Positions 1 to 34,300 of a stretch of DNA of 64,000 nucleotides are shown in pieces. Position 1 is the stretch's first letter; every line of letters begins with the position of its first letter. The DNA comes from Balanoglossus misakiensis. Its lineage: Eukaryota; Animalia; Hemichordata. The position numbers and the translations under genes are program-made. Under the pieces are notes generated by a model. It saw nothing but the letters and a program-made list of their open reading frames with translations, was not told where the DNA came from and did not search any database. The DNA lies in contig CM082583.2 of the NCBI GenBank assembly GCA_040954595.2, positions 12,314,987-12,378,986 of the forward strand, given 5' to 3'.

Positions 1-3000
1 TCCAATATAAACTATTTCATTGAGATCTGGAGCCCAGGCATCGAATTCTCTCTGCCACGCTGTCATGGTTGACAAGGGAACGACTAAGAGATGAGGACCA
101 TACAATTGGTATGCATTGTGCAGGTATGAGAGGAATGCTATTGCCTGTATGGTTTTTCCCAGGCCCATCTCGTCGGCTAAAATTACACCATTATCTCTGA
201 AAATACACAGAACAACACTAGTGTTAAAACTTATGGAAGAATACTTTGTAATATAAATATCCAATATAAATGTATTTTCAGATGACAGAATGTTGGGATT
301 TGTTGACAGTGTGTGTGTGTCGCATCTTGTCTGACTGACTCAATATGTATGCACATACATAGTTTGCCTAGTTTTATACTCACTTGCACCATGAATGAAG
401 CAGCCAGTTCAAGCCGTCAAGCTGATAGTCTCTGAGCTGAAGTGTATCGGTATTCCCAAAGAAAGACGGCTGCTTTTTCAGAGCAGTAAACCTCGGTCTC
501 TGCTTTAGCACCTACAGAAGACAGCAACATTACATTACATAATTTAGAATGGTATTCTATTTCATTATGGCTATTTTGGAAAAGACATTCACAACTATCT
601 ACACTGTACACCTGTGGGCTGACTCACTGCCAAATAAAGTGGGCATCAGATACACATTTAATCACAAGAGATCAGGATTACGTCCCATGTGCAGAAGTAC
701 ATCATCATATATGCGCCACAATACCAGAGCAGTGCCATGCTTTAAAATTCCTTCAGATGCAAATGAAATGTCCTGTGTGATCCAGGATGTTGTAGTGAAA
801 TCGCTTTTTACCTTACTGCTCCTGGATGGCACTTTGTGGGATTTCATTCTATTGTTGTATTCTTCCACGACCTGTGTAAATCTCTTGGATACGAGGTTAC
901 CGTCTTCCCAGGTGCCCTCGCAGTACGGAAGACCCTGCCACTTGCACAGGTAGTCGGGATGCCCTGTCGTGGACTCTCCTGGATTCTTCTGGTTTGTGTG
1001 GACTGAAAGATGAGATTTGGCTTTTTCATTTTATGCTAGGAGCATCAAGTTATTGTCATGATTTGTCAAGATTTTGAGTTAAAGCATAAACATGTGCGTC
1101 CAGGGACTTCCGCATACCATAAATGATGACAACCACTGTATAGTCTCCACTTACCGATAATTCTTTCAACTTGTTGGTATTGTTCGTATAATTGATATGC
1201 CATTTCTTGTTGACACTCAAAATACTCTATGTCCTCTGGACTGGCAATTCTCTTCCTACAAGTAATTGAAAGCGGAATGTGAAATTTGGCTTACTTCTTC
1301 AGCCATGACATGTGGAAGTTAAAGCTTGCACTAACGTTAATTCCAGAATCACCAGAATGATACAGTGTATCTCTCTCACAAGAGTGACAATAGACTTAAA
1401 TTACCAGGCAGCGAGTTCTTGTTCTCTCTTGATGAAGTTGTCCAATTTTTTGAGTCCTTTGACGTTCTGGGCTCTGAGGTTTTCCGCCGTTTCCCAAGTG
1501 TTATGGATGTGAGCCCAGCCTTTCCACTTGATGAGGTACTGTGTTTCAGTTTCTTGAATTTCTTCGTCGTCTACAGGAGGAGCTGCTGCGACGGTTCCCG
1601 CGGCGATTGCAGCCTGCTCTGCCTCTACGTTGTAGATGGTCGTCTTGGAACCAGTTTCTGTTGGACGCATCAAATGGCATGGAAATTTTGTAGGTTAAAA
1701 TCCAAGGACTTTCCAGACGTGCATGAACTCAGATAACTTCTTAATCCGAAACAACAACTTACGTCCTTTCTTCCCTCTCCGACAATTCAACACTTTCTCA
1801 ATGGTTTCCTTGTTGTCGTCTTCTACCTCTTTCATGTTCGTTTCAATGATGTCATCAGAATCGGTGACATCATCACTGTCTTCTTTGTAACTGTAAATTG
1901 ATGAGAAGGGATCATTATTGTAGAGCTGGACATCTGAAGTGCATATTCCAGGTTGGTAGCTTTATGCTAATTTGCTTCAGGTATCAGAAACGCTCTCTCT
2001 TCTGATGGGTAATAATGCAAAATGGGCATCAGATACACGTTAAATCACAGGAGATCATTATTACGTCCCATGTGTAAAAGTACATCATCATATGCATATC
2101 ACAATAGTGCAACAGGTCCAGCTTTCTTAGCTCAGTCAATGGATCACTCACTCACCTTACATGAGCAGCTGCTCTCCTCTGTAAAAACCTCTTCCTTTCT
2201 ATATCACTATCATCCTCTTCAGACGAGGAGGCTTTCTTCTTCTTCCTGTTTGCCACAGGTCTCTTTTTCTTGACTCCTGCTGCTCTGGCTGTATGAGAGA
2301 TCAGCACATTGGAAAAGATACTGTTAAAGTAATGTAAAAACGGAGGAGGCCTGCAAAGAACCATGGCCTCCGATGTAAAAAAAAATTATGTTTCAACCCA
2401 CATTCCCTCCCTGCCTCCACTGCTATGACCTATGACCCATGACCTCACTGTGACATCATACCTTTAACTCTTGGCTGCATCCTTCCAGCTGCTCTCTGTA
2501 GTCTGCTTGGCCTGGCTGATCCTTTGGATCTGGCGCCATCTGGAACGAAATCCGACTCGCTGCTTTCCCCACTGCTTTCTTCACTCAGCTGACTCGTTCG
2601 CCAGTCTTCACTTCTACACACAAAAAGATACACACAGTACAGATTAAAGAAGCAATTTTCAATCTCTGGTTCTTGCATTAGCTCTTGTTGACACTGAATG
2701 TATATGTGGTGCGAACCTTTTGTTTTCCATTGAAATCATAATCAATATAATCTATAAATAAAGATGCGATATTTGCTACTGTGACTGGTAATACGGTATT
2801 ACAAAATGTGCATCAGATACACGTTAAATCACAGGAGATCATTATTACGTCCCATGTGTAAAAGTACATCATCACATGCATAATACCATCATAGTGCCAA
2901 GCATTTGACATTTCCAGCCTATGATATGAAAAGCACCCCAGGCTGGCCTTGGGTTAGCCCATGACCTCCTAAACCAAAGGAATAAACACTACATACTCTT

Positions 3001-4283
3001 TTCTCGATCTTGCTCCACTTCCAGCTCGACTTCTTCTCTTTTTAGGAGAACTGCTATCATCACTTTCTTCATCACTTGAAGCCTGATAAAAAAAAGTTGC
3101 AGATCTATGGTCAATGACAATGAAAGTGGACACAAACTTGCAAAATATAAGAAACTCGCAATAAAAGTTTGAAAATGCCAGTATTTCTCATTCCAGATTC
3201 AACGTATTTCTCCCAAATTCACCGCAGCCAATTTTTTAGACCAGCTTAGCAATTGTAAATGTGCATTACAGCTATATACAAGCAAAGCTGAATGGGGTTA
3301 TCCATGCATTAGTAATGTAAAGCTGGTGACTTTGAATGTACCCAATGATGGCAATAAGCAGTTTTTTAACAGCACCAGAGAAAAAAAGGTCTACCTTAAC
3401 CTGAAAACGGTCAACTTCTCTTCTAGATCTGCTTGATCTCCTGACACCATACATATCTGGAAACTCTTCCCACATCTGAAAAAAAAAGTTCAAAAATTTG
3501 CACCGGAATGTTGCAATGTGTCACCCAGACAAGACATCTCTCAATAATTCAAAACCAAATATCAACTTGTGTAACATTTTCAACTCACAAAATTATCTTC
3601 AGTGCAAAAGCTTTAAAGTTTGTACACTGAACAGTGCATCATTTCTCTCACAAACTGCCTGCTGGCACTTAAACGCTTACATGATTTACAACTTCTCTTA
3701 ACAACACACCAAGGTGTTATACACAATAGATTTGCCTTCTCAAAACTGAAATCTTTGAACTAAAGCCGCTAAGAGTTTAATCTTTGCTTTGAACTGAAAC
3801 CAATGAGAATTGTTTAATCAGCATCACATGCTCAACAGCTCATAATCCCAGACACCTGTAGCATTCTGTTCTTGCAAACTGCATAGGAAATAACGCTTTG
3901 GAGACAGAAGGAATAACATATTTTTTGGTGACTGACTAAACTTGCCTACCTGTTTCAGATCTTTGAGTCTGTCTTTCTTGCTACCACCTCCTTTCAAAGA
4001 CGAAGAGTTAACTCTACTATCGTTTGTGGAATCGTTATTGGTGAAAGCATCTCTGGTATCCATGGATTCCTCATCATCTTCCTGCACATCTTCCGATTCT
4101 TCGTTCTTCAACGAAGAGCTTGAATTGGAATTGGACTGACTGTCTTCTTCTTCTTCTTCTTGACTTCCAGATTCTGAACCACTTCCTGAATCCGAGTCTG
4201 ATCCAGATGCCGACCCTGATCCTGATGCGGACCCAGACTCCGAACCAGACTGGCTGGAATTTGATCCAGAGCTGCTTTCATTG
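1..4283 (-). CDS. CHD1: CHD1/CHD2-family chromodomain helicase DNA-binding protein, 5' coding exons; gene runs off the left edge
   Basis: GT-AG exons that join in frame: 4283-3950, 3475-3395 (or 3401), 3082-2997, 2613-2462, 2288-2156, 1890-1763, 1657-1405, 1255-1155, 1002-812, 511-384, 196-<1. They encode a Ser/Gly-rich N-terminus, chromodomain 1 ([18 protein letters not shown]), chromodomain 2 ([18 protein letters not shown]), [15 protein letters not shown]2 motif I ([15 protein letters not shown]) and motif Ia ([16 protein letters not shown]). CHD1 versus CHD2 cannot be resolved; this is probably the pre-duplication orthologue. Confidence 0.95.
639..717 (-). ncRNA. Intronic box C/D snoRNA copy 1 (SNORD82/U82-like; predicted guide for the 18S site equivalent to human Am1678)
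   Basis: On the minus strand: C box ATGATGA (708-702), guide GGGACGTAATC (686-676), D' CTGA (675-672), C'-like GTGATTA, D box CTGA (649-646), terminal stem GTGG(C)GCA/TGCCCAC. It lies in CHD intron 512-811, sense to the host. Confidence 0.88.
2023..2097 (-). ncRNA. Intronic box C/D snoRNA copy 2 (SNORD82-like)
   Basis: C box ATGATGA (2091-2085), guide GGGACGTAAT (2069-2060), D' ATGA (2058-2055), D box CTGA (2032-2029), short GCA/TGC stem. It lies in CHD intron 1891-2155. Confidence 0.87.
2806..2882 (-). ncRNA. Intronic box C/D snoRNA copy 3 (SNORD82-like)
   Basis: C box GTGATGA (2875-2869), guide GGGACGTAAT (2853-2844), D' ATGA, D box CTGA (2816-2813), TGCA/TGCA stem. It is near-identical to copy 2 and lies in CHD intron 2614-2996. 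Confidence 0.87.
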
Positions 4284-5636
4284 CTAAAATAGAAAGAAAG
4301 AAAAATCAAAATTAGTTATCAAACACGCAAAAAAGTCACTGTCAATGACATTAATTTTGTAGATCCTGTCTATACATGAGCTGTAAAAGCAACTCTGTGT
4401 ATTCTTGGAAAGGAAAAATTAAAAACCTGTCAAAAAGATGAGTTTTTAGTATTATTTAATTTGTTAATATGTGGTACGTCAGTTTTACGTCTCTGTATTA
4501 CAGTTTGAATGTTCATGGTTCTTCAAATATCAAGTCAAACTCAAATATAACATTGGTTTGAGACTGTAAAACTCGCGTTAAGAAGAAAGAATAGACAGCA
4601 TATATAAGCTAAATAGTGTTAAATACACGTGGGTTAAAGCATATAGTACGAGTGAAACAAAATTTCAGGATGAATGAAAAAATTTTCATATATGCAAATA
4701 TCCTCCTGTGGCCTCTGCAGCAATGCGACACAGTAGTTTGCATTTCAAACACAACGTGATTCACACACAGTTTTCCAACGGAAATATGAATTTTGGACCT
4801 GAATCTGGAAATTTACACTCAAAATTTCACCACTTGTAGTATTTGTAGTAAGTAACAACACAACAAAAAGTGTCATGAATGAAAAAAAAATTATTTGCCA
4901 TCGAAATTTATTTAAACTGCACGGAAAGGAGTGTCAAGATAATGAAATAACTACACCTAGCACAATTTTTACATTTTCTCAACTGGATGCCACAATTTTT
5001 CTCTTATTATTTCAAAATCATACCCTGAAAATGGTCTTCTGTACAAACATATACACAAATTCAATGAAGGCATGTATAGTATACGTCAGCCAGGAGCTCA
5101 ACAGAATATATCACTGCACTGTCTAGTGCCGTAACAACACACAAGCTCACATAAAAATTGGAAACAGAACTCAAAATACAACCTAAAATCTTAAATATGA
5201 AAGAAATCAAGTTTGTATGGGATTTCCAATAAGGTCAAAGGTCAAAATCTGTCCTTGAAAGCACTGTATCTGTATGCGCTAAACATATCCATGCTGGCTG
5301 CTGGACTTTGCCCATTGTGTTCAAGCTACCTGTGGGCCCCAATTAAATTTTCCTGATTTTTCCTCCACTTGAAACGTTGAAATATGATGTTTTAAACAGA
5401 AATATTTCTTATCCTAGGCAAATTCTGCTTGAAGTTACCCACAGACTGATGTTTACAACATGGCTGGTCGAAATAGACATCATCAAATCTGCACATGACA
5501 TTTTCTCTCTTGGCCACATTTTAAGTCGGCCATCATAGCTTATATGACGCAAATTTAAAGAACAAAATCACAAATTCCACAAAATAGCTTCAAAATTGAA
5601 ATTTTCAACTGTGTGGGGAGGAGAAGGGATGCTTAC

Positions 5637-5657
5637 AAGTAGTTCTGTACCATTTTG
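5637..5657 (-). CDS. Candidate 21-nt CHD microexon carrying an in-frame AUG (aaaATGG; M-V-Q-N-Y-F)
   Basis: ctgcag|caaaATGgtacagaactactt|gtaagc. It ends in phase 2, matching the exon starting at 4283. The polypyrimidine tract is weak. Confidence 0.3.
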
Positions 5658-10022: not shown

Positions 10023-10355
10023 CTCGAGGCTTCGCTTTCGCCCGACGACTCCTGCCCATTGTCCTCCTCAACATCGACGATGCCTTCGAAATCCTGTGAG
10101 AAAATATTCTGACCGTCAACCTGGGTCCCTGGGACAGGTTGTGAAGGGAAGGGGAACCTGTAATGACCGTAGTCTGCGATGACATCCGTTGGTAGAGCTT
10201 CGATAGTGGTCAGCTCCGGACTGGGCGCAACAGCAGCGACATGCTCATGCGGGACACGACTGTGCCCTTGGGGAACTATTTGCCTAACATCTCCATATGC
10301 GAGGAAGGGAGACTATATTGGGTAAAAGCAAGCAAAATGGCACATTATTCGTCTG
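10023..10355 (-). other. CHD second (leader/first coding) exon
   Basis: Pyrimidine-rich NAGNAG acceptor (cttttctgttctacagcag) and donor GAG|gtaagg at 10023. The CHD-phase frame ends ...DVEEDNGQESSGESEAS, resembling the CHD1 N-terminal NG..SSGES stretch. Confidence 0.65.
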
Positions 10356-13400: not shown

Positions 13401-14548
13401 AATGTGAAAACTGTCAATTTGATCGAGCCGCATGTATAAAATTATGTAAGATTATGTGCATTTAATTGATGACATGGAAAGTGCATTCTTATAATTGTTT
13501 CAACAAATCGACGGCCACGGCAATTTAATATTGACCCATGGTTTGGTACGGCCGCATAATTTATCGATTAATATAAAAACTGAAGCAAACAAGTACGTAT
13601 CACGTGTTCGATGAAATACGTGTGTTGAGGCGTTTTTATTTACAATATATGACGTTGTACTGGAAGAATCTTTTTGTCTATAATAATTAATCCCCGGTTA
13701 TTTAGTACCAGAGAATGAGTGCATGATTGCATTTCGTGATGGAGAATATTTTGGCATATTGGCATCACACAGCAGACGTACGTGTCATTCGATCATTTCT
13801 GACAGAAAAATTGAAGACAGGCAATATTTATTGTGCCATTGCAGTTGTTCAGCGCGTCTTGGAGAGAAGTCATACATTCAATGAACAGCCGTTGACGGTG
13901 AAACCATGTCCCGTAGAATTAGAACCAATCTTTGATGAAAGCAGTAGCAGCAGCAGCAGTGATGACAGTGACAGTGAGGAGGATGGCGGAAAACAAGAAC
14001 CTGTTGCTAGGCAACCTCAGATGTTGGGCGTGGACCAAAAGGGTGGTACTGATAGTGTGGGGATGGAAGGTGCTGTAAGGACAATAGATGGAGATAAATC
14101 AGATGGGGAACAGCAGCATTTTTACCTTCCGTCATCAATTTTTGGCTCTGACAATAGTGACAATGGTGATGGTGACGTTAAAGACGTTGACGGTGGTGGT
14201 GATGGTTGGCAACTGTGCGATGACAGTGATGGACCCGGTGAGAAAAGCCAAGAGCGTGTCAGTTATGCAGATACTGGTGCTGTTGATGGTGACCACGTGG
14301 TAGGTGCTGATGATGGTGATGCTGGAAGTCTTGTTGATGGTTATGTTGTTGTTGATGTAGACAAGAACAAGGAGATTGACATTCCTGAAGAAGACAACAA
14401 TGACATTATGTGCTCCAGAAAGACAGAGCAGGACAATCAACAGCAACAGCCACTACTACCACAGATTAATGAACGAAGTGAGAGGATATATCCTTCCCTT
14501 GGTGAACTTGGTGAAAAGCTGCCCACTGTCAGACAAGAACCAACAAAA

Positions 14549-14634
<86 letters not shown>

Positions 14635-17600
14635 GGATGATGATGATGTCAAGATTGAAAAAACTGATGACATCTCTCCAGAAGGGATGGGAGGAGGTGT
14701 TGTAGATGATGAGAAAGGGGGGCAAGGAGAAAGAAAACCTGCAAAACCAAAGGATACTGATGATTCTGATGGAGAAGACAGTGCAACAACGGAAGAGGAC
14801 TCAGAAGAGGAAACTGGTGCTGAACCCAAAATGAAAGAAGAAAGGGAAGCTACGAATATGTCATCCCTTCGAGAGTTTGCCAAAACGTACAAGGAAAACC
14901 TGCGCAATATAAACCCACTGATGGAATCTATGCCTTTCCCAGGCTCATATCCAAAATTTTATCCCGGAGCGTATCCTGATGCTTCCATGAGAAACCCACA
15001 CGGACAATTTCCACCTCACATGCCACCACCACCACCAATGCCACCAGTATACCCGGCAATGGCTGGTTTTGACCCTCGAATGTATAATTATCCTGCACCG
15101 GTTGGAGTTCCGCCCCAAGTATCTCAAAGTAACACTGCACAGCAATATCCGATACCTGCAGAGCCACAAGAGATCGACCCAATACCAAAACCAAATGTAC
15201 CACCAGGTCAGTGAAATTATCCAAATGCAAAAAAATGTATTTGATTGTGAAACTTGAATCCCACTTTTTTGTTCGAGGTGGATGCTTTTGCTATTGTGAC
15301 TTACATCACTTTGTTTTTTTGTGTGATTGTAGTTGTAGCACCTGTACATGAAGAGCAGCAGCATAGTTGGCCAAACAAGGAGAACCAGGAGTGTGTGAAG
15401 AATGAAGACACAGAAGCGAAACCCACACCTAGCTCCCCCTCCTCCTCATCTTCTTCTTCTGAGGATGATGATGATGATGATGAAGATGGTGGTGGTGATG
15501 ATGATCCTGGTATTGTACATACTGACAGCAGAGAGGAGGAGGATCTTTCTGGGCCAGTAAATGATGACAAAGATGCAACACTCTCAAGTGACGAACCAGA
15601 GCCAGACACGATAGAAGTCACCAATTTGTCCCCCGAGACAACAGAGGAGCTCATGGAAATGTACTTTGAAAGTCGAAGGAGTGGTGGGGGTCCTGTAACT
15701 AAGGTTGAGTTAGCCTCAGACAGAGCGTATGTGACCTTTGCAAACCCATCAGGTAAGTTTTGTAGATCGGTTGAAGGCAAGCTTCCTGATAAATACGGAA
15801 CTTTAGTACTCAAATTGATGTATACCTGTGATTAGTAATGTTGTTATATTTTCCTGAAGCATCTGCTAACGCAAAATGTAAGATAGATTCACTCATTATA
15901 ATTAAAATTTGATTATAATTATGACTTATCAATGGGATGCTCACTCTTATACCATATGATATTTCTATTTCTACCTAGATGTTGTGGCTGTCTTGAAGAA
16001 AACACACAAACTTAATCAGCGTACGCTACAAGTTCGAGTCGCTCCTCCGTTGCCACCGGTTGATCCTCTGAGAGTCATTGTCAAGGTCAGTAGAATTTAA
16101 TGGGTAATTGTATTTTGTTTCAAAATAATGTTTGAGCAACACATGACTTTCAGTAAAATTTTGTGTTGGCCAACTAGTGTGCTACATGCATAAGTCTAAA
16201 TATTTCAAAAAACTTGTCCTTGTGGTGGGTCTGTATAGAATATTGCAGAGAAGACAACCGAAGATTGCCTGTTTCTCTTCATGGAACACATGAGTGGATG
16301 TGAAGTGAACCAGGTGGAGTATGGGATGGAGGAAGGTGTTGCTATGGTGACATTCACTGATAAACCAGGTGGGTTTTTTGTTTTCTTGTTGGTGCAGCAA
16401 AACACTCAATATTTTAGACCAAGAAACTATATTTGCTACACCGAACAAAAATACTGGAAAAAAATAGACATAATTTTCAGCTAATATCCATCCTTTTAAT
16501 CTATCAGTTTTTGACAAAATGGCGGAGAAAACCCTGAAGAAGAAGCTGGACGGCAACATTGTTGATCTGAGTCAAGTCTTGGTCACAGACTGCGTTCTGG
16601 TTGCTGGCATCAATCAGGTCACAAATGAAGACACTTTGGAGCTCTATTTCGAAAGTAAACGAAGCAGAGGTGGCGAAGTTCGCGACGTTGAATGGAACCA
16701 CGAATCACACACAGCGGTGGTTTCTTTTGATGATTTTGATGGTGAGTGTTGTGAAAGTGATCAAATCAGAACGTTTCTCTGGAAGGTACAGAGTCGCAAA
16801 TCTGCAAGAATATCAAGCCATGGTCTTGGCTCTTTTTGCGTGGAACAAATCTCACTCTGAGAATTAAGATCTAAAATTGTCAGTCAGAAAGTTGTGCCAG
16901 GTGATGTCCTTTAGTAGGGTTTTATAATGATTTGTAAGACTGGTAAATGCTTCCATGATGTAGTTACATATTAAATAATTGTGACTTATTTCTTTTCCAG
17001 TTGTTGAGAGAGTGGTACAACAAAAACATGTCTTGAACAGTGCAACACTGACAGTGGTTCCCTACTATCAATCATTTGGACCCCCGAGGTCCATGAAGGA
17101 GTTCTTCATCCCAAACCTGCCAGATCCAGTAACCATTGAGGTGGACCCATCAGTGGCAGAGTTCATCATGAAATGGGGAGAGCATCAGGCTGTGGTTGAT
17201 CGGGAGATGGAAGGTCTCCACGCCAAAGTAGAATGGACTTCTGTGAGGAGTGGGGGTGTAGAAATCAGCCCAACCCTGACTGTAGATATGGAAGACATCC
17301 GGAATCTGGTGAAAACTTGGTCCAGTGATGTGAAACAGAGAGCTGATGAAATCCTTGGAGAATTTTCTTCCAAGGAAGCCAAGGCTGCACCAGAGTTGTG
17401 GCCAAAGCTGAGAGAGAGACTGGCGGAAATCAAAAGCATTGGTGAACAGTCGCAGCTGCAGGTAGAGGAGGATGATGGAAACCACACCGTCACTTTCACC
17501 GGACTGGCAGGGCACGTCACCGAGGCAACCGATGCGTACCGGAAGGTTGTCAAGGAGATAGAGGAGAAGATGAAGATCGAGGCGACCGTGGTGTCTGACC

Positions 17601-20600
17601 GGTGTCTCAACGTCAAAGTTGACAAGTTGCGACTTCTGCAAACGATGAATGTGGAGAGTCAATCACCTGATGAAGACGTGGAAGTGAAGATCGCCTTGGA
17701 GCAAAATGAAATCACTTTTAGGGGTCAGTCATCGTTGGTCATGGAAACCAAACTGAAGATTTTGCAAACTCTGTCAAATGTTCTAGAGAAAGAATTGGAG
17801 CTTCCGGCGGATGTTGTGACATTGGTGAAGAAAAATTTCAGTCAAGTTGAAAAGTGGCTGGCTGCGAAATGTCAGGTCATTGTCACAGTTGACTATAATG
17901 GGGCGCAAGTTACAGCCATGTCGAGACAGGACCTGGATGTTGCAGTTGCCTTTCTGGGGGGTCTAATCGTAAAAGATGAAATCCCTTTGAAACAAGGATG
18001 GGAGCCTCTCATGGATGACATTAACTTGCAAAAGCTAATCAGCAAACTGGAAACTGATCATTTGCTTGACATCAAAATTGTGAAATCCACAATCAAGTTT
18101 ATCGGTACACAAGATGCTGTCGACCTAGCCACCAGACAGATTGAAAAATTCATGTCAGATAATGCCATATATGAAGTGGTTGTCAAGGCGACGCCCGCCG
18201 TGCTGCAAGTTTTATTCACCCACCACCAGACGTTTATTGAGGACACAGAGAAGGGACAGCGGCATCAGAAAGTGAAAATCAAGCGAGCTAAAAACGGACT
18301 GCAGATTTCCGGTACCAGTACAGGAACGACAAACGCCAGAACCTCAATAGAAGCCATTTTGAGTACTTTCATGACGGAGAGGATGACAATAGACAAACCA
18401 GGTATGTGGCAGAAAAGTTGATCGCTCTCTGCATTGTGTGCCTTGCATGACAAGTACCAGTATTTCACCAGTTATTCTTTGGAAGAAAAATTGAACCAGT
18501 AATTATATGTATGCTTACAGCATGAAACTGTTTTGTTTCAGGCGTCAGAAAAATATTTGAGCAAGGAGATGCAACAAATATACAGTGGATAAGCATGGTA
18601 GAAAAAGAGCATCAGTGTGCAATAAATGTTGAATCCAAAATCGATGATGGTGCTGCGTCTATAGGCAGACATGACGATGCCATTGCTGCAACTGCATTTG
18701 CTTCTGAGGTGATGTATAGATAAAAATTCTTATGTCAGCAATCTGATCATTTGTTTTCAGCAAAGGTCTTGTGCACAACCAGACAAGCCTTGTTAGACAT
18801 TCAGTCCTAAGGCCGTAATATTGTATCACTTTGCTATTGACTGTGTGTCAATTAGACAGAATGATATTTATTCACACGTACTAATGGTGTGGATGCTAAC
18901 TTTCTTCTGCAATTCTTTGCACTTTTTCAGTCATCGAGTGAAGTTCCTGCAATGCCGCAGCTGCAGAGGACCCCTTCACCCAAACCAAGGTGATTTAGCC
19001 CCATTTGCTCCATATATGCAGCTGATGAAATCTTTGGTCAATGGCCTAAGAAGTGATATTTGCATGTATGTTAGTGAATAGGGGTGCATTGGAAATTGGG
19101 CCACTTGCCAAAATTCAAATTCTTGTCATATATTAGAGGGGAAGTCCACTTGCTTGGTGTAAATGCTGCCAATTTTCACACAAAATGGTTGTGATCTGCA
19201 CACAGGCATCGTAGTCACAGTACCCCTAGCCACAGAAGATCTCGGCAACATCAAACCACCCACAGTCATGGTGGAAGTGGGGACAAGATAAGCACAGCAG
19301 AGGGAATTGATATTATACTCAAACAAGGAGACATCACTCAGGAACAGGTCAGTCAGTCAGTGTGTCTGCAAAGAAGTTCACCATACGAGATTTTTTAAAA
19401 GTTAGATATTGGACAGTTTTACTCTCCCACACTCAGGAATATAATTTTTATCTCCATCTGTCTCCCTGGTATTGTAAAAGTTAAAGTGATCTTACCCTTT
19501 TTGCAAAATCTGTAACATTTTCTGGATGTCCATCCTAGGCTGATGTCTTGGTGAATACATGTGCTGGTAATCTGAAGTTGTCTGGTGGTGGTGGTGTTGC
19601 CAATGCGTTTGGTCAGGCTGGTGGGTCTCAGCTGCAACAGGTAAAATAAAACCCACTGTCATTATCCAAGTTATTTTTTTTGACAATTTCTCAAGGAATA
19701 CTAGTTCAATCAGATGTAGAGTTGGCTTGGTCCCCCATTTGCTGTTTCTTTGCTGTTCTGGTCTTGGATGTAGTGTGATGGGCATCTGAGAACAGAACAG
19801 CCAAGAACCAGCTAATATAAGGATCGATCGCGCCAACCCTACATCTGATTTTAAGCAGGTTGACCATAGTATACTGTACGAGTCTGCATCTTCTGCAAAT
19901 GAAAAAAAAGAAGAGATTTCTGAAGTTCTTTGCTTGGTAACTATGGTGACACTCATTCTCTTACTCAGTACTGTGATGCCATTGGTAAAGCCAACACTGG
20001 TGAAGTTGTTGAAACTGATGCGGCTGGTGCCCTCACGTGTCAGTCTGTGTATCATGCTGTTATGCCGTCATCGGGTCGTAATGATGGTCAGGTAAGATCT
20101 TCCCTGTGAGGCTTATACGATTTGTGTTCTGAGATTTGGAAACCTGGTTGCCTCTGATTTAATTCCTCTGATTTGAGTTTTTTTTTTCATTCTATCAATT
20201 CTTCTTTCAGACTGTCTGCGACATTGTTAATGAATGCCTTACAATGGCCAGCAATGATAATTTTGGATCGGTGGCTTTCCCAGCCATTGGCACTGGTAAC
20301 CTTGGTTACCCGAGGGACGAGGTCGCGCAAAGCATGTACGATGAAATATTCAGATTCAGTCAGCAAAATCCAAACACTTCCTTGAGGGTAAGTGGATGAT
20401 GTCTGTTTTCATATTTGTGGTTTTAGTGGTCTATGTGAGAATTAATTACTTGGTTTGATCTTTTATTGAACTACTGCAGGTGCATGGGGGAGGCCAAACT
20501 TTCTGAACCCATAGTTTATTTCTTTTGATCATTTCAGACCATTTACTTCGTGGTTTTCGACGGTGGAACGGTGCAAGCATTCCTGACAGAACTAGCACAA

Positions 20601-23600
20601 AGACAAGGCCATCCAGTGCAATTACCAGTAACACCCAACATCCCTGTTCAAAGGAGCATGTACAGTAAGCGGAGTGCACAGATTTCCTCTCAAAGATTCA
20701 GGCACGCAAAGTCTTTAAGACAACAAATGCAGCCTCGTATGAGTCCAGCATTGCGGAAGTCGCGGTTTGCATCGGTCAGTGCTCCAGCCTCCGGACAGCA
20801 AAAAATGACCATAGGTGGCATCACATTGGAAGTCCAACAAGGTGACCTTACGCAGGAGACCACTGATGTCATCGTCAACTGCACAGGTGGCAATATACGT
20901 AAGTCACCATATATGGGGTACATAATAGTTGGCAGGGAGGGGGTTTGTGTTAGAATCTGCACCTTTATGCATGGATAGAGGCAGAATTTTTTTCAAGAAA
21001 CAACTTCCCACATAGTCATATTTTTTTTCATTTTTCAGTTTCTGGTGGTGGAGTCACAAAAGCTCTGATTGCAGCTGGTGGCAGTGCCTTACAACAAGCA
21101 TGTCAGCAGTATACAGGCCAAGCACAAGGATCTGTAGTACAAACAGGTACTCACACACAGACATGTATACACAGATTACATGACTGTATAACAATGTACA
21201 TGTACCTGGTACAGTACTTGTACCAGTATATATTGGTACTTTACTCCTATCTGATTTTTTAAAAATTGAAGAAATGTCCACTTTACCAGTATAGAGGGTC
21301 TTTATAGTGGTTCTATGCAAAAGGGCTACAATTAATGTGCAATTGATGTATCGATGTATCTTAATTCTCTTGAAGTCGGTGGCAATCTCTCCTGTCAGAA
21401 TGTCTACCACCTGGTCAACCCACCTCCTCAGACTCTGAAAGACTCAATACTGAAGTGTCTTCAGATGGCTGAAAACAGTGGCATGAACTCCATTGCATTC
21501 CCAGCTGTGGGTACAGGTATGTGTTTTAAATTGTATCATTCATCTGACTAAGATAACGTACGTGAGTTAAGAGATTTAAAATTATGCAGATGAGAATTTT
21601 GTGGTTTCACATTTACCATTTCACAGGCAGCCATGGTACGACGCCTCAAGCCTGTGCCCAGGGGTTGTTGGAGGGCATAGACAACTTCACACAGCAGAAT
21701 CCGGCCGGAAATTTACAGCTGGTTCGGATAACGGTATTCCAGGCTCAACACTTGCCAGTATTCCACGCGGAGATGAACAACTATTCACAGTCCGGCATTG
21801 TGTCATCTGGTTTTCGCCCATTGAAACGCCAATTGTTCACTCAAGCTCCTATGGCTGTAATGTTTCCAGCCACTCCTGTTCCTGTTCCGTTGCCCGTACC
21901 TGCAGCTGGAAATTCAGCCACAACTCCAGCACCAAAGAAGAAAAGTAAGGAAGGAATATTGTTCATCATGCATCTATATAGGTGTCACCTGCAGTTACTG
22001 ATTTTTGTGCTGAGAGCAATAAACATCTATGTATAAGTCTTATGTGTGCCATCATGTGTGATATGTGTGCATGTGTACATGAACTAGAAACTGATTCTTT
22101 TACCATGAAGATTTCAATTATACCTAATTAATTTTATCCAATATTTTCAATATCAATTGCTATCTGTAAACGGCAGCTTCAGTTAATATTACCTATTTTA
22201 TTTCAGACTGGGATATACTTTGTATTTTCAACAATTTTTCTGTTCTTCTCAACATTACCAGAGGACAGTCGCACTGTGTGGTCTGCCTTCAAGGACTTTG
22301 TGTCTGGAATTGGCAGTTCAAAGAGCAGAAAGACGGAACTCACTGGCATCTCATTATCAATCACTGCAGCAGATAAATTGCATATCAACTGTGCCAAAGA
22401 TGCTATCAACAAGTTCCTCTCTGACCAGCTGAAAGAAACAGTAAGTGGAGTTTACATTGTGACTTATTTTTTTTACTCTGGACAAATGTCCAGATTTTTC
22501 TGATTGCAAGGTTTTAGACATTATATGCATGTACCATACCCTCTGAAAGGGAATTATCTTTCACCCTGGTCGTGGCATATTTTTTTAACCACAGGAACTT
22601 CGTAGCCCTATGATTGGAAAACTCAGCCGTGTTGAACTGGAATCACTTGAGGTACTTGGCATTCAGCATGACGTAAGGGTTGAAAAAGGTACAGAGCATA
22701 TATCATTCAATTCTAAAATATTACTTTACATCTGTGCATAAAATAACTTATCTTCTGATACAGATGATTTCTTACCTGTACATTGATGTTAAGAAAATAA
22801 TGATTGGCAGAGATGACACTGTCATCGTGTCCAAATTTCACAGATTGTGACTTCAACTTGCAGTCTTTACCCTTCAATGCTATTTTTTCCGTCATCAGAT
22901 GGCAGAAATAACATCCTCAAATTGTCGGGCAACACCAATGATGTCCTTCACGTCTACTCGGAAATTTCCTCGATTCTAGACGCAAAAAAAGATGAGCAGG
23001 CGCAGAAGGAAAAGGCTGAGCTGCAAAAGAAAAGTGTCCAATGGTAAGTGGATCGAGTTTTTGTCCTCATTGCTATTTATTAATTCATAAAAATATGCTT
23101 GGAATGAAAACTTGACATTACCAAGTGATTGGACTTTTTAGTACGTCCTACAGAACAAAGATTGCAAAATAAAAAAGCCAGTTCCTCGACTGATCCTGAA
23201 GGACTGGGAAGGTTGATTTGCACTGACTGACACACACAACACTCATGTTGCATGCGTTGATCACAACAGATCATGCAGATAGATGTTTTTTCAATTGTTA
23301 TTCCAGGTACTGGTACGACAGCAAGTGTCAGCACATGATTGCATACGACGCGATCACTAATATGATAATAGAAGAGGCGTTTGATAGCAAGAAATCAGAG
23401 GTATTTTACGACCTGAATGACAACGGGCAGCGTCAGAAATGTAAAATAGATTTCAAAAAGAAGGAGGAAATCATTTTAGGGACAAAAGAGACACATAAAG
23501 TCAATAGAGAAGATTTACTTTCGAATACTGTCTCAATACAAGGTAGGTACCATCTTCTTAATGTCCATTGCAACAATAAAAACTTATAGTCTTTGGCATA

Positions 23601-24613
23601 CTCATTAAACTTTCATTTTCCATACTATTGAAAAATGTACTTTCAATGTAAGATACATGAGTATGCATGAAAATAATACAGTTTTGATTCTGTATTTAAA
23701 TGTTCATAATATAGGAAGTGTCATACCATCCAATTGGGATCCCCAGCCACTCCAAGCAAACAACCAACCAGTCTCATGTCATCGAGTGAATTTGCCACAA
23801 GGTCATCCAGAGTATCAGACGGTCCAAGCAGCATTCAGCAGAGGTGGTCGCCAAGTTGTAGCCATTGAACGCATTCAGAATCCGCATCTGTGGCAGCAAT
23901 ACTGTGCGCAGAAGGACAAGATGAACGCGCAGAATCAAACTCGTGGGTAAGAGTTAGCTCAGCAATGTTTCTTGATGCCTAGGGAGCTGTGTGAAAAATA
24001 TGTTAAGAAAGAAACGTATTAAACAAAGAGCTCGACTTCACTGAGTTGTATATAATTTGCGCTTTTACCTTCAGAGCCAATGAGCAGCTGGTATTCCATG
24101 GAACAAGCGAGGCTTCAATTGATAACATCAATGAGAAAGGATTTAACAGAAGTTTCAGTGGCAGGGCTCATGGTGAGTTGTACATATTTGGCTTTGGAAA
24201 TAATGACAAGAATGTTACGCGTTATGTTGATTCACAAAGGTTGTTATCACAAATTACAATCAGACCCCATTTACATGCAAGTATATATACATATATATAA
24301 TATACCTGTATACTCCACTTTTCATCTTACAGGAACTGCCCTTGGCAATGGCACATACTTTGCTGTGAATCCTGGCACATCTCTAAGTTATTCAAGAACA
24401 GGAAGTAGTGGTTATTGTTATATGTACTACGCTAGAGTCTTGGCTGGAGAGTACACACGGGGACAGCCCCGTATAGTCTTACCCCCACCCAAAGACCCAA
24501 ACAAGCCCTTTGATGTCTACGACACAACAGTGGACAACGTCAGCAACCCAAATGTATACGTTATATTCAATGACAATCAAGGTTATCCTGAATATCTGAT
24601 AAAATTCCAATAA
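13074..24613 (+). CDS. PARP14: PARP14-like macrodomain mono-ADP-ribosyltransferase (4 RRM-like modules, KH-like region, 2 macrodomains, WWE, PARP catalytic domain); about 24 exons
   Basis: Approximate exons: 13074-13257, 13845-15206, 15333/9-15752, 15979-16085, 16239-16368, 16508-16741, 17001-18401, 18542-18708, 18931-18989, 19206-19347, 19539-19640, 19969-20091, 20211-20387, 20538-20898, 21039-21146, 21376-21516, 21627-21944, 22262-22440, 22595-22688, 22899-23044, 23307-23541, 23715-23946, 24075-24172, 24333-24613. Motifs: LELYFESKRSRGGEV (RRM-like), QGDITQEQADVLVN..FPAIGTGNLGYP and QGDLTQETTDVIVN..FPAVGTG (macro), VQWYWYD..YD..IEEAF (WWE), IERIQNPHLW, VFHGT, GFNRSF, GNGTYFA, RVLAGEY and YPEYLI (ART). 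The symbol denotes family likeness, not proven orthology. Confidence 0.92.
14549..14647 (+). repeat. Coding trinucleotide repeat (GAT)28-GAG-(GAT)4, poly-Asp
   Basis: Directly visible inside PARP14-like exon 2. Confidence 0.97.
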
Positions 24614-28369: not shown

Positions 28370-31300
28370 TTAGATGTGGTTGTAAGCTCTCAGTGAGCAG
28401 ACGATGACGTATGCAAACCACAGCAACAAAAGGAAGGCACTACATATGTATTTGAAGAATCTGGGTCCGCCGAGCTCACCGCCAATTACCTGATTTTACA
28501 AAAAAACAGATAAATGGTTGAGAATTGACATGAACAATTAGTGTAGTTCACATGTAAACATGGCGATTACCTTGATTCTTAAAGACATTAGTACGAAACA
28601 AGTGATATGCAGAGCTGAGTCACGGAAATCTTTCTAAGCAAGTTTCTTATATTGATTAAGTTTCCTCAACAGTCAGAATCAATGAGTGACTCATGGGACT
28701 ATGTCTAATTAAAAAATTCAAATGACATCATTTCATATTATTTCACATGGGGGCAGTCACTGGAAAAACAAAAGGCAAACGCCAACACTAGCATTGATGG
28801 CGCCCTTCACAACAGCTCATTCACTCACCTTCCTGCGAATTACAAGAAGCACCAGGCATCCACCGCCACATGCAGCAAACACTGTCACAGCCAGATCTAA
28901 GTTGGCCGTCGCGTAGCGCAGCGTTTCGTTTTTGGCATATTTGTACATTGCGTTAATCACCCAGGGAAGTCCTAATCCGAGGAACACATTCACACTGTTG
29001 CTTCCTGTGGTGCGAAATATCAATACAGAGACTAGTATTAAAACAAACTTTCTGCGTGATGATAAAAGTGACACATTTGAGAAAAAAATGACTTGGGAAT
29101 GATCACCTTTTACTTTTGTGAATCCTAATCTGTATTTTATAGCACTGCTGCTCTAAGTAAAAATAAATTCGGCTGTGGAAAAACAGTTTTATAATTATTT
29201 TTTTGTTTGTTCATCTGACCTGTTATATTGCCAATGGAAGCATCAGCATACTGGTCTTGCATGGCTGCAGTTCTGCTGGCAAATGTGTCTGGCAGACTGG
29301 TTCCCAGTGCCACAATTGTGATGCCAGTCACACTAGTCCTTATCCCAATCACGCAGCCCAAAAGATGACTCAACTGGAAACAAGAGGAAAAAAGATGTCT
29401 TTCAGAATTTAAAAAAATGAGTCTGCGATCACTTGGTAAATTTGATAGAGAACTAAATCGATTAGCCTGAAAGGTATGTTGCATGTGAGTACAGACGACA
29501 TATTCAGAAAGTTCTTGAGAATCATCAATAATGCAAAAGGGACAGAAAGACTGTTTTGCAAACAACAAAGGGCTCTAAACATCCTTTTGTTTAAAGTCTA
29601 TAGAATGTAATTACCACAGTCAATTGACATGGTCGATTTTGCTGGTATTGAATTAATCTTTGCAGAGACAGCAATATACCTCCTTTTGAAGTTTTCATTG
29701 AAAAAACCTGGGCACTTTTTGGAGGTTTTATTCAAAAGAATGAATACCGATATATATTTGTAAATATTTTTGTCCGGAACAAACCTTTTAGAAAGGAAAT
29801 GGACAACTTTCCGAAAGCAAGATATATTTCAAAGAAACCTTTTGATCAGAAATATGAAAGGACAACATGGTGGGAAAAGGTATGATTACGTCAGTACTTA
29901 ATAATTGTTCCCAAATTCCAATTCTATATTATTTGTTTTAAAACTCTGAGAGCAGTTATTGACAATTATAACAGCCAGTGAAGTATTGATCTAATTTGTG
30001 TTAATTGCTGAATAGCCCCAACGGTTGGCTCTAACGGCAACTCTGAAAAGTCGAAGATAATGACGTCTTTGTGATCTCGGGAACAATTATCCAAAGTGAT
30101 GAATAACTTCCTAAATGGCATTTTTTTTAAAGCGCACCGCTCTCTCAATTGGAATCTATTGATTTGCCAGCGGGTGAAATCAATCACGCAATCAACACGA
30201 AAACAAAAGCTACATTAGTGCAAGCCAGGGAATCTGTAACTGTGCATTCTCATACTCCATTTTCACACAAAGAATTCCATTATCTCCTTGAAATCTAATT
30301 GTGCAGACGTGTCAATTTCAATTGGCTCTTAGTGCATCAAGTGACAGTCACATTGACTGAGAAATCTGATCATGAAATTGACAATGCTTAAAGAGGAAAG
30401 CAGCTGTAACTTGGAGCTAATTTTTTTTCCTGTTAATTGTTCTGTGTGGCAACTGCATGGTTCCTTTTTGATTGATCATTGATTGGAATCTTACTCGGAC
30501 TGAGACGCAAAAACTGCATCTTCAGAAATTTGATCAGAAACACCCTCGCTTCACAGAATCAAGTCTGCATGTTTTCATACCTGTTCAATCAAAGCTGTCA
30601 GTGCAGCGATCATCATCAGAGAAAAGACAAACGTTGGCCATCCTCCCAGGGCTTTTCTGAAGAAGAAAATAAAAGAATTAATTGTGCATGTTGCTCTGTG
30701 GTATTTGAACAGACAAAATTGGTCAAATCTGTGGTCAGCTCAGGACACACTACAAGGTCATCGTAGATCACCACAGGTCAAATTTCAGGTCAGTGGCGGT
30801 CAAATCAGAGCAGTGCATGTATAGGTCATTGTACTTACTTTGGGGGAACAAATGCAAAAAGCACTTTCCAGAAAAATGTAATGAAATGTAAAACGTAGTC
30901 TACGTTAGAAGCTGGGATGTCATTCCCGTCTTCATCTTTATCCCCTCCAACTGTCATTGCACTGAAAAATAAAATCCAGCATAATCGTCAAAATTCATAT
31001 TCAAACATTAAAATTAATAGTTATCTTGTGACAAAATTATCTCATATTAAACACGGACTTCAACAGAAGCACATGATCCATCAAAATGACTTCCACCAAT
31101 GCTTCAATAAGATGAAATTCAAAATTTAGGTTTTAAATTTCATGCTTGGCTGATTGGGTTTCCGTTTCAATGACTAGTGAAGTGTGCATGCGTTGGTTGG
31201 TGAGTGAGTTTTAGCAATTTAAATATCAAAGACTCTACTTAGGTATTAAGGGAATATGTATCTTCAAGCACTGACTGGTGGGGATTATGGCTAGGATTCA

Positions 31301-34300
31301 GGAAGTTGCATTGGATACGTAATTTGATGAGCAAGGGCTGCCACAAAAGCCTGCCTCGTTCAAAACGTCACACTTACTTTCTAAACTGGTCTCCCCATGT
31401 TTCATCTTCCTCCTCATCATCACCAATGATATTAGCAATTCTATCTTGCACATTGTCTGAAAAAAGTGAGTAAGGAAAACTGGTTTCATAATCTTCCACT
31501 CTTGTTTCATTCACTGCTACAATTACTTTTTGCGGAACCTTTTCAGTTTTGTACAAAACCAACACAACTGTATGAAATCTTGGGGGAAAACACTAAACAC
31601 CCACACAGACTGAAGTGTGATGCTAAAGCGTGCATGAGATAATTTTTATGACATCTCCCTCTTTTGACAGATGGAAACAAAGACGTTTTAATCTGTAAAA
31701 TGTCAATGAATAAGGCAACGCTAGTCCCTCTTGACCTAAATAAATTTTAAAATCCATAATTTAATGGCTACAGAAGCAGATCAAATCCAATTTTGCCATC
31801 TCCGTAAACACAGAAAAAGTGGAGCCATCTGCTGACAAAATTAACGATGTTCCACATCAGTGATCCCGTTGGCATGGCGGCCAATATTGCTTCCATGGCA
31901 ACAACTCACCTCCTCCGATATTCGCCACACAGGCACTGTGCTCGCCGATCTTAGCACCTATGCTGGGGTTGCGCAGGGTGATTACAAAATTTTTCAATTT
32001 CTACAAGAAAATCATGCGATAAATAAAAAAGGAAAGTTTGGTCAATAAATTAAAGGAATATTAATATATGAATGACAACTTTCAATATCAGGGAATTTTT
32101 TTTTTAAATTTCAAGAAAAAATTTAAAGATTGTGAGGAAAATACCTTGCAATTTTTGTTGACATTCACAGTGATCTGTTTGGACATTTCTCGGTGTTTGA
32201 AACACAATGTTCCTGAACTGTTTGTGTAGTCAGCCTCCTCATTTCCATCTTCACCTCCCTTGGCTGATCCATCACTGGATTATGGATTAGAATAAAGGGA
32301 TTATCATTTCACTAATCCGCACCTTAAATACACGTTCAGTAAAAGTGCTTATTCATTCCCTTGATAATACATTATTGGATTAGAGTAAAGGGATTATCCA
32401 ATCATCATCAAATTTCACCAGGTGGAAAAGAAAGTTTCAACATGACTCACATAGTTGTGTATTGGATGGTCACGTTTCCATCAGAGCCTTGGGATCGCAC
32501 AATGGTGGCAGTTAACATCCCTTTGGGTAGGTCGGCATGGTAACTGGGTTCACCGAAGGAAAATTCTCCCGGTACTGAAGAGGTAAAAAGTTTGAGATGA
32601 CATTTATACTTTTAAAATGTTAATCACAGGTGTGACGAGTATCTGTTACAAACCCGAATGGTTACAGCCTGAAACACAATACTGCGGACATGAGTATCCA
32701 AGATTTACTGCCAATGTTCAACTAACTCATTCACTTTACAGCTATGAGTTTTGTTGCGATGAAACTCTGGTCTCAGACAATCATTCTGACTTACCATCAT
32801 CGTCAATGATGGTGACTCGACACACGCTTGGGTCCCCTAACCCACCATCACCACCTGGGTTCTTCAAAATGACGTAGAAGTCCATATCGCTCTCGTATTG
32901 GTTGTCGTTGACGATGGGAATGGAAACTGTCTTTTTCCACTCTGTGTCTTTGAATATCTGTGGAGCAAAAAAAAGAAAACATATTTTGTAGTTAGTTAGA
33001 ATGTATGTTTGATTTAAGTTACATGTATTTTTAAGTTAGTTATAAGAATGGCATTTATAATTGTTTGAGTATTTATTCATTTTTCCTGTGTAAACACATT
33101 TCCTTTGATTGTGTACCTTTCTATCCACGCTAAGTCGACAGAAATTAATTTGGACTTACCAGTTTTCCCCGAGTAAACTTATATTCTGTATCTCTCTTTG
33201 CCGACCCGTCTCTCGTTTCGTAATCTACAGTGACAACGCCAGTGATCATGTCCTCGTCAACTGGCGGCTCGTCAAGCAGTTCCAGGTTCCCATTTTGCTG
33301 TGAAAGAGAAACAACATTTTTTCACTGATGTACTCGCCAAATACGGAGAGACACGGAAGTCAATCAGAACACTGACCCCTCTCGTGTGACCTTCACATTT
33401 TGCCGACTCCGACATAACTATCGTTTCGCATCATCGTGCCACGCAACAAATATTCTACTGGAATGATTGACGACCGTGGGCCCCAGCCTCTGACATCCTG
33501 TCCCTCTAAGCTTTGTGTCGCGACGTATGCTCAGAGATGAATCCATATGTTTGTAATATTATTGAGCATGCCTAAATTTTTACAAAACGGTAAATACACA
33601 AATCAGCAACTGTCACTAAGATTGATTCACTTGTGGTGTCTGATATATCTCTTCATAACATCAGGGAAATTAGCATTTATCTGTGTATTATCTGTATCTG
33701 CGACTGATTTTATTTTCAATAACCTAACCTGGGGCACAATCTGATACCATGGAATCATATTTGACACAACTCGGTGATTTTTCTTTTGACCTGGTATGAT
33801 TGATGGTTGACAAATATTGATGCAAATTTCATAGAATGTCTACAGGCAATAAACATGATAATTGTTATATGCATGCGTGATGAGAAAAAGTGGAAATCAC
33901 ATGATTGGTGTAGATTGAGTTCACTAAAAAAAAATCATTGTGACATGCGGGTTTGATAGCAATTAAAACATAATACACCCGGTTCAGTTTTTAATTAAAA
34001 ACTATAAAAAATCACGTTTTTATAAATGAGATCCCTCCAGCGATGCAACTGAATGACTACTATTCATTCACATGTCATATATATGTCGTTTATTTTTAAG
34101 TGACCTTTAATTTTTATAGTTTTTCTCACTACTGGGAGATCACGGCGACTGTCAGTTGATAAAATTTGTTCATATCTGGCGAGCGTATTGATTTAAATAT
34201 TGATGAGATGGTCCACTATTGTGCAGAAGTAACACTGCCTTTGAATTTGATATCTGATTTGTGGATGTATTCTTTCCAGGTGTAAGTGATACTGTGTCAG

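What the first reader, a model, noticed from the sequence alone, without database searches (positions are those of the whole stretch)
639..2882. Three paralogous box C/D snoRNAs nested one per intron in a CHD1/2 chromatin-remodeller gene
Seen: a roughly 75-nt unit recurs at 639-717, 2023-2097 and 2806-2882, each in a different CHD intron and sense to the host, while the flanking intron sequence is unrelated. Each copy has RTGATGA...CTGA boxes, D'/C' boxes and a terminal stem that differs between copies but still pairs. Established: GATTACGTCCC(TGCCC) is a conserved 18S rRNA stretch upstream of the decoding-site GTACACACCGCCCG. The D'+5 rule puts the methyl on the A of GAUUA, equivalent to human Am1678, which SNORD82 guides from the nucleolin gene. 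The guide pairs with the non-vertebrate ACGUCCC variant rather than human AAGUCCC. Inference: a SNORD82-like snoRNA has changed host to CHD1/2 and expanded by intron-to-intron copying, linking remodeller transcription to rRNA methylation.
Basis: partly seen in the sequence, partly recalled or inferred. Interest (0 to 1): 0.8.

Follow-up and report, generated by a model that had tools for sequence, protein, structure and literature searches.

The report
SNORD82-type snoRNA trio in CHD1 introns
Three introns of a CHD1 chromatin-remodeller gene, likely from an acorn worm, each carry a close copy of a small RNA unit predicted to guide a ribosomal-RNA methylation already mapped in humans, frogs and flies; it is likely an ordinary, mobile guide RNA in one more host gene.

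Summary
Three 63-nt box C-to-box D units (708-646, 2091-2029, 2875-2813, minus strand) lie one each in three of ten GT-AG introns of a CHD1-like gene that is 86% identical to Ptychodera flava CHD1-like. All share a 10-11-nt guide before box D' that pairs with 18S rRNA. The D'+5 rule lands on the A equivalent to human Am1678 and fly Am1806. The guide matches the Rfam SNORD82 consensus guide except at the one base that tracks the rRNA variant, but the copies score far below Rfam's cut-off (15.2 against 43 bits).

The framing is oversold. The fly orthologue is known and intergenic, chicken U82 sits in nucleolin, and a metagenome scan found same-guide units in EEF2, PA2G4 and HIPK introns. Host switching is therefore routine for this guide, its direction cannot be set, and nothing links remodelling to methylation beyond shared transcription. 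Expression and this species' own 18S could not be tested. Verdict: new member of a known kind, low interest.

The parts
641..713 (-). snoRNA copy 1 (mature ends inferred): box C 708-702, 11-nt guide 686-676, box D' CUGA 675-672, box C' 665-659, box D 649-646
   Evidence: Rfam SNORD82 only 15.2 bits
2024..2096 (-). snoRNA copy 2 (ends inferred): box C 2091-2085, 10-nt guide 2069-2060, box D' AUGA 2058-2055, box C' 2048-2042, box D 2032-2029
2808..2880 (-). snoRNA copy 3 (ends inferred): box C 2875-2869, 10-nt guide 2853-2844, box D' AUGA 2842-2839, box C' 2832-2826, box D 2816-2813; one base from copy 2 between boxes C and D
512..811 (-). host intron of copy 1 (300 nt; box D 134 nt from the 3' splice site); holds a copy-specific external stem at about 624-735
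1891..2155 (-). host intron of copy 2 (265 nt; box D 138 nt from the 3' splice site)
2614..2996 (-). host intron of copy 3 (383 nt; box D 199 nt from the 3' splice site)
1..4283 (-). CHD1/2-family host gene: 11 modelled coding exons, open for 594 codons (tandem chromodomains and the start of the SNF2 ATPase); the gene runs off the window start
   Evidence: Pfam Chromo x2 and SNF2-rel_dom; PDB best hit CHD1, E 2.7e-22; 497 of 579 residues identical to P. flava CHD1-like
10025..10312 (-). upstream coding exon of the same CHD1-like gene
   Evidence: tblastn to P0001 residues 4-98, 75% identity

Best explanation
Three introns of a CHD1-like gene each hold a box C/D unit with the same 18S-complementary guide, and these are likely SNORD82-type snoRNAs that would direct 2'-O-methylation of the 18S adenosine equivalent to human Am1678, riding on CHD1 as a likely passenger host. 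Inferred mechanism, from the standard box C/D pathway: the host pre-mRNA is spliced; core proteins (15.5K/Snu13, Nop56/58, fibrillarin) assemble on the C/D kink-turn; exonucleases trim the intron to about 70 nt; the D' guide forms a 10-11-bp duplex with pre-18S, and fibrillarin methylates the base paired to the fifth nucleotide upstream of D'. The D-side element has no good rRNA match and probably extends the kink-turn stem. The three copies likely arose by within-gene duplication. Copies 2 and 3 are either the youngest pair or were homogenised by conversion.
For: Shown: boxes, intronic and sense position. The guide gives 11 (copy 1) or 10 (copies 2, 3) Watson-Crick pairs at the same 18S site in all 7 SSU-containing rRNA loci tested; the target A is SSU position 1801 in L036 and 1614 in L060. 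Only 0.14% of window 11-mers and 0.54% of 10-mers are antisense to an rRNA set. A published table equates fly Am1806, human Am1678/SNORD82, Xenopus Am1636 and the unmodified yeast position 1614 (PMC11014333 Table S4). The Rfam SNORD82 consensus guide differs only at the base opposite the C/A rRNA variant. A same-guide unit in a PA2G4 intron passes Rfam's SNORD82 cut-off (50.2 against 43 bits). All 8 variable columns between boxes C and D avoid the 30 box and guide positions (P=0.004, with positions chosen after seeing the data; P=0.23 for the guide alone). Same-guide units occur in EEF2, PA2G4 and HIPK introns, intergenic in fly and in NCL intron 5 in chicken, which fits the published constrained-drift and passenger pictures.
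Against: The window copies miss Rfam SNORD82's cut-off by a wide margin. Copy 1 scores 15.2 bits (E 0.82), below a spurious SNORD37 hit; copy 2 is not listed at E<=10; copy 3 is not listed in the 4.5-kb scan. The duplex is short and the terminal stem is 3-5 bp without covariation. Box D lies 134-199 nt from the 3' splice site, against 61-93 nt in the six other-host loci. Fold z-scores are unremarkable (-2.2 to +0.3). The three-copy model recovers only 1 of the 6 other-host loci at E<0.01 (L029, E 0.0012; L019 E 0.16; four not listed), so homology outside guide and boxes is weak. The species' own 18S, RNA expression and methylation were not observed.
Confidence: 0.85

Rival explanations
1. The location and triplication are selected: CHD1 transcription or splicing sets the dose of this 18S methylation, or the snoRNA-intron stems feed back on CHD1 splicing as SNORD2 does on EIF4A2.
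For: There are three intact copies, whereas chicken lists one and fly one. Copy 1 has a strong external stem. Precedent for host feedback exists (PMC10324135 passages).
Against: The same guide sits in at least five other genomic settings (NCL, intergenic, EEF2, PA2G4, HIPK). Paralogues in several introns of one host are common (PMC2653536). The external stems are not shared between copies, and copy 1's stem ends more than 100 nt from its 3' splice site.
Confidence: 0.06
2. The units are silent relics: copies of a guide gene that lies elsewhere in the genome, and none is processed from CHD1.
For: The distance to the 3' splice site is longer than in the other-host loci, the terminal stems are weak, D' is AUGA in two copies, and the rest of the genome could not be searched.
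Against: Boxes and guide are intact in all three while the flanks have diverged to near-randomness. All three are sense and intronic. The distances lie within the range reported for human hosts (median 109 nt for ribosomal-protein and 168 nt for translation genes, PMC13736004).
Confidence: 0.07
3. A dispersed repeat or short mobile element whose rRNA complementarity is chance.
For: Copies 2 and 3 are 97% identical; genome-wide copy number is unknown.
Against: No further copy in the other 61 kb. All three are intronic and sense. The complementarity is in D'+5 register with a mapped methylation site.
Confidence: 0.02

Closest known systems
SNORD82 / U82 / Z25 (Rfam RF00158; chicken GGgCD28)
   Same: Same guide position (before D'), same target (human Am1678; chicken 18S A1633 with an 11-nt 5' guide), similar length, and guide identical to the Rfam consensus except at one compensating base.
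   Different: Host is CHD1-like rather than NCL intron 5 (the chicken host is; the human NCL host is recalled, not read). Three copies rather than one. The spacer between box C and guide is longer (15 nt against 7-11 in other-host loci). Score is far below the Rfam cut-off.
Drosophila snoRNA:Me18S-A1806 / snoRNA:CD41 (FBgn0086074)
   Same: Invertebrate guide for the equivalent site; 73 nt; expressed; Am1806 is supported by RiboMethSeq and nanopore data (PMC11014333 Tables S3, S4, S6).
   Different: Single and intergenic with its own promoter annotation.
Cis-duplicated intronic snoRNA paralogues (e.g. chicken U18a/b/c in RPL4 introns 2, 5, 6)
   Same: One copy per intron in several introns of one host, with guide and boxes kept (PMC2653536).
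   Different: The host here is a chromatin remodeller rather than a ribosomal-protein gene. From recall, with no call behind it, vertebrate CHD8, CHD4 and CHD3 also host sno/scaRNAs.

Membership tests
Box C/D methylation-guide snoRNA | Box C (RUGAUGA) near the 5' end and box D (CUGA) near the 3' end | tested here: met
   3 of 3 copies, 63 nt from C to D
Box C/D methylation-guide snoRNA | Internal D' and C' boxes | tested here: met
   D' CUGA/AUGA/AUGA; C' matches RUGAUGA at 6 of 7 (copy 1) or 5 of 7 positions
Box C/D methylation-guide snoRNA | At least 10 nt of complementarity to rRNA directly before D or D', in +5 register | tested here: met
   10-11 Watson-Crick pairs on other eukaryotes' 18S; the species' own 18S was not available
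Box C/D methylation-guide snoRNA | Terminal stem joining boxes C and D | tested here: inconclusive
   3-5 bp, no two-sided change; external stem significant in 1 of 3 copies
Box C/D methylation-guide snoRNA | Accumulates as a discrete RNA bound to fibrillarin and directs the methylation | not testable with these tools
   needs small-RNA sequencing and RiboMethSeq of this species
SNORD82 (Rfam RF00158) | Score at or above the gathering threshold of 43 bits | tested here: not met
   no hit at gathering in the window; copy 1 15.2 bits; copy 2 not listed at E<=10. Filed as SNORD82-type by guide, not as an Rfam member.
SNORD82 (Rfam RF00158) | D' guide aimed at the 18S A equivalent to human 1678 | tested here: met
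SNORD82 (Rfam RF00158) | Common descent with vertebrate U82 beyond guide and boxes | tested here: inconclusive
   A profile from 5 other-host loci ranks the three copies first (32-35 bits; next 9.2), but those loci were picked with a pattern drawn from the copies. The reverse search is weak.
CHD1/2 remodellers (host) | Tandem chromodomains followed by an SNF2 ATPase, closest to CHD1 | tested here: met

The most novel reading that the evidence does not exclude
These copies use a two-part grip on 18S. Besides the D' guide, the five bases directly after box C pair with the 18S stretch 15-19 nt downstream of the target, beside the decoding-site Cm1703 equivalent. This compensates for the short guide and could make this lineage's SNORD82 a local folding chaperone whose dose follows CHD1 transcription. 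The extra pairing adds 4-6 kcal/mol but is only borderline against shuffled spacers (p=0.044-0.064), and the same bases can pair internally with the pre-D segment.
Probability: 0.07. Interest if true: 0.4.

Novelty: new member of a known kind. Interest (0 to 1): 0.17.

Why it matters
It adds a probable hemichordate data point for an animal-type 18S methylation (modified in human, Xenopus and fly; not in yeast, Arabidopsis or Dictyostelium). With the metagenome loci it shows one guide in six different settings: NCL, intergenic, EEF2, PA2G4, HIPK and CHD1. That is a clean illustration of snoRNA host mobility and shows that Rfam's SNORD82 model misses most invertebrate-type members (1 of 5 other-host loci passed; 0 of 3 here). 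It is useful for annotation but does not change how these RNAs are understood.

Tried and rejected
Expression: no RNA holder was listed for window 1-4400, so no reads could be laid. Whole genome: none is held, so genome-wide copy number, the 3' part of CHD1 and the species' rDNA were not examined.

Second guide before box D: best matches were 9 pairs or fewer within rRNA-coding stretches and inconsistent between copies and loci. One 10-pair hit (with a G-U pair) in L042, downstream of the 18S site in a stretch not annotated here, was not reproduced in any other locus. The segment is not conserved in other-host loci. Rejected as a guide. snRNAs were not tested as targets.

SNORD37, snoU31b, snoR122, SNORD48 and SNORD57: weak Rfam hits that rest on the boxes only; rejected.

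CHD1 as host elsewhere: tblastn of P. flava CHD1-like against L001-L029 gave no hit at E<=0.01.

Metagenome scan: 28 loci returned. I kept 6 (L013, L019, L021, L023, L024, L029; L013 and L021 carry the identical element). L002 and L006 lie among bacterial-type genes. The other 20 were dropped on inspection of the match without a host check. The EEF2 identity of L023 and L024 rests on by-eye likeness of their exons to L029; Pfam gave no hit for them. The ESM Atlas gave no usable hit for placing L021.

A hand-written structure string was out of register and was discarded in favour.

Literature searches without a relevant hit: Me18S-A1806, fly RiboMethSeq terms, A1806, U82 + nucleolin gene, snoRNA + CHD1 + intron + box C (4 papers, listing only, none on this by title or abstract start), snoRNA + hemichordate (0 papers). 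Earlier-findings look-ups gave nothing on this unit; one search listed unrelated intronic snoRNAs.

Full report
Observation. The window's first 4.3 kb holds the 5' half of a CHD1/2-family gene on the minus strand. Pfam finds two chromodomains and the start of the SNF2 domain, and the best PDB match is CHD1 (E 2.7e-22). The only protein returned by the homologue search (1 of 4 candidates) is Ptychodera flava CHD1-like. An 11-exon model with ten GT-AG introns is open for 594 codons and 85.8% identical to it (497 of 579 residues), so the source is probably an enteropneust hemichordate (inference). A repeat family has three copies, each inside a different intron and sense to the host. From box C to box D each is 63 nt. 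Copies 2 and 3 differ at 1 position, and copy 1 differs from them at 7-8. The flanks are essentially unrelated, and no further copy lies in the window.

Anatomy. Each copy reads: box C, a 15-nt spacer, a 10-nt invariant guide, one variable base, box D' (CUGA or AUGA), a short loop, a degenerate C', about 10 nt, box D. Folding places boxes C and D side by side between a 3-5-bp terminal stem and an internal stem, as a kink-turn needs, but the z-scores are unremarkable and no pair covaries on both sides. Copy 1 has a strong copy-specific external stem, copy 3 a borderline one and copy 2 none. From recall, such stems can help processing of snoRNAs that lie far from the branch point. Here box D is 134-199 nt from the acceptor.

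Target. The species' rDNA was not available, so I used eukaryotic 18S fragments from public collections. The Rfam eukaryotic SSU consensus carries the complementary site. The guide forms 11 (copy 1) or 10 (copies 2, 3) Watson-Crick pairs there, and the D'+5 base is an A at SSU position 1614 in L060 and 1801 in L036, 25 nt upstream of the decoding-site C. Table S4 of PMC11014333 (supplement rows read; main-text passages) equates yeast 1614 (unmodified), fly Am1806, Xenopus Am1636 and human Am1678/SNORD82. A review table also lists Am1678-SNORD82 and Cm1703-SNORD43 (PMC11550049 passage). Chance complementarity of this length is 0.14-0.54% per position. The Rfam SNORD82 consensus guide differs by one base, the one opposite the C/A variant, and the window guides lose about 6 kcal/mol on the A variant. 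No convincing target was found for the D-side segment.

Family membership. The copies fail Rfam's SNORD82 threshold. A pattern scan of metagenome contigs returned 28 loci, of which 6 (5 distinct elements) look genuine: intronic, sense, with boxes and a terminal stem. Their hosts are eEF2 (L029, E 7e-39; L023 and L024 by eye, in a different intron from L029), PA2G4 (L019, E 6e-8) and HIPK (L013/L021, E 2e-122). L019 passes Rfam SNORD82 at 50.2 bits; L021, L023, L024 and L029 do not reach the cut-off. So an ACG-type SNORD82 exists in invertebrate-type DNA and the Rfam model misses most such units. A profile from those loci ranks the three window copies far above background, partly by construction; the reverse search is weak. 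I therefore call the units SNORD82-type by guide and probable descent, not Rfam members.

Host. Chicken U82 is in NCL intron 5 as one copy (PMC2653536 table passage). The fly guide Me18S-A1806 is intergenic, expressed, and its site is mapped. With EEF2, PA2G4, HIPK and now CHD1 that makes six settings, so no ancestral host can be named. Published work already describes both processes: cis-duplication into other introns of the same host (PMC2653536 passages), and constrained drift between broadly expressed hosts (PMC3511168 abstract and passages). Host sets also shift between vertebrates (PMC6984369 passages), and most expressed human snoRNAs are classed as passengers (PMC13736004 abstract and passages).

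Mechanism. Shown: position, boxes, guide complementarity to other eukaryotes' 18S, register, and orthologous sites in the literature. Inferred: processing from the spliced intron, RNP assembly, methylation in this species, and origin by within-gene copying. A borderline extra pairing between the bases after box C and 18S 15-19 nt downstream of the target (p about 0.05) is kept as the novel case only.

Novelty. The host-guide pairing looks undescribed, but the RNA kind, target, invertebrate orthologue, duplication mode and mobility are all known. Verdict: real, new member of a known kind, interest 0.17.

Noticed in passing
window 13727-24610 (+): PARP14-like gene (RRM, KH, Macro, WWE and PARP catalytic domains), head to head with the CHD1-like gene, whose upstream coding exon is at 10025-10312.
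   Followed up: no
window 28820-33035 (-): Exons of a sodium/calcium exchanger (Na_Ca_ex and Calx-beta).
   Followed up: no
window 3395-3401 (-): Two possible splice donors 6 nt apart at a CHD1 exon end. The P. flava isoforms X1 and X2 differ by 2 residues (1924 and 1922 aa), and X1 aligns 2 more residues to this model, so tandem-donor splicing may be conserved.
   Followed up: partly
window 47792-47869 (+): Weak model hit (19.2 bits, E 0.024) sharing a 15-nt stretch with the C' region of copies 2 and 3 but lacking guide and boxes; probably chance.
   Followed up: partly
L029 155-229, 3004-3078, 4022-4078, about 4488-4570 and 5580-5650: This EEF2 gene is a multi-snoRNA host: two SNORD18 copies, the SNORD82-type unit, and a further duplicated box C/D-like unit seen by eye with no Rfam hit at gathering.
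   Followed up: no
L023 1-480; L024 about 390-1010: The EEF2 intron upstream of the snoRNA holds a tandem array of roughly 60-nt units, each repeating the preceding exon end and its splice donor.
   Followed up: no
L001 1-2692: A contig in the viral collection joins an apparent RNA-virus polymerase-like frame (seen by eye) to the 3' part of a eukaryotic 18S; probably a chimeric assembly.
   Followed up: no
L030-L067: Eukaryotic 18S sequence is a common contaminant of prokaryote genome records: about 320 stretches estimated in the collection.
   Followed up: no
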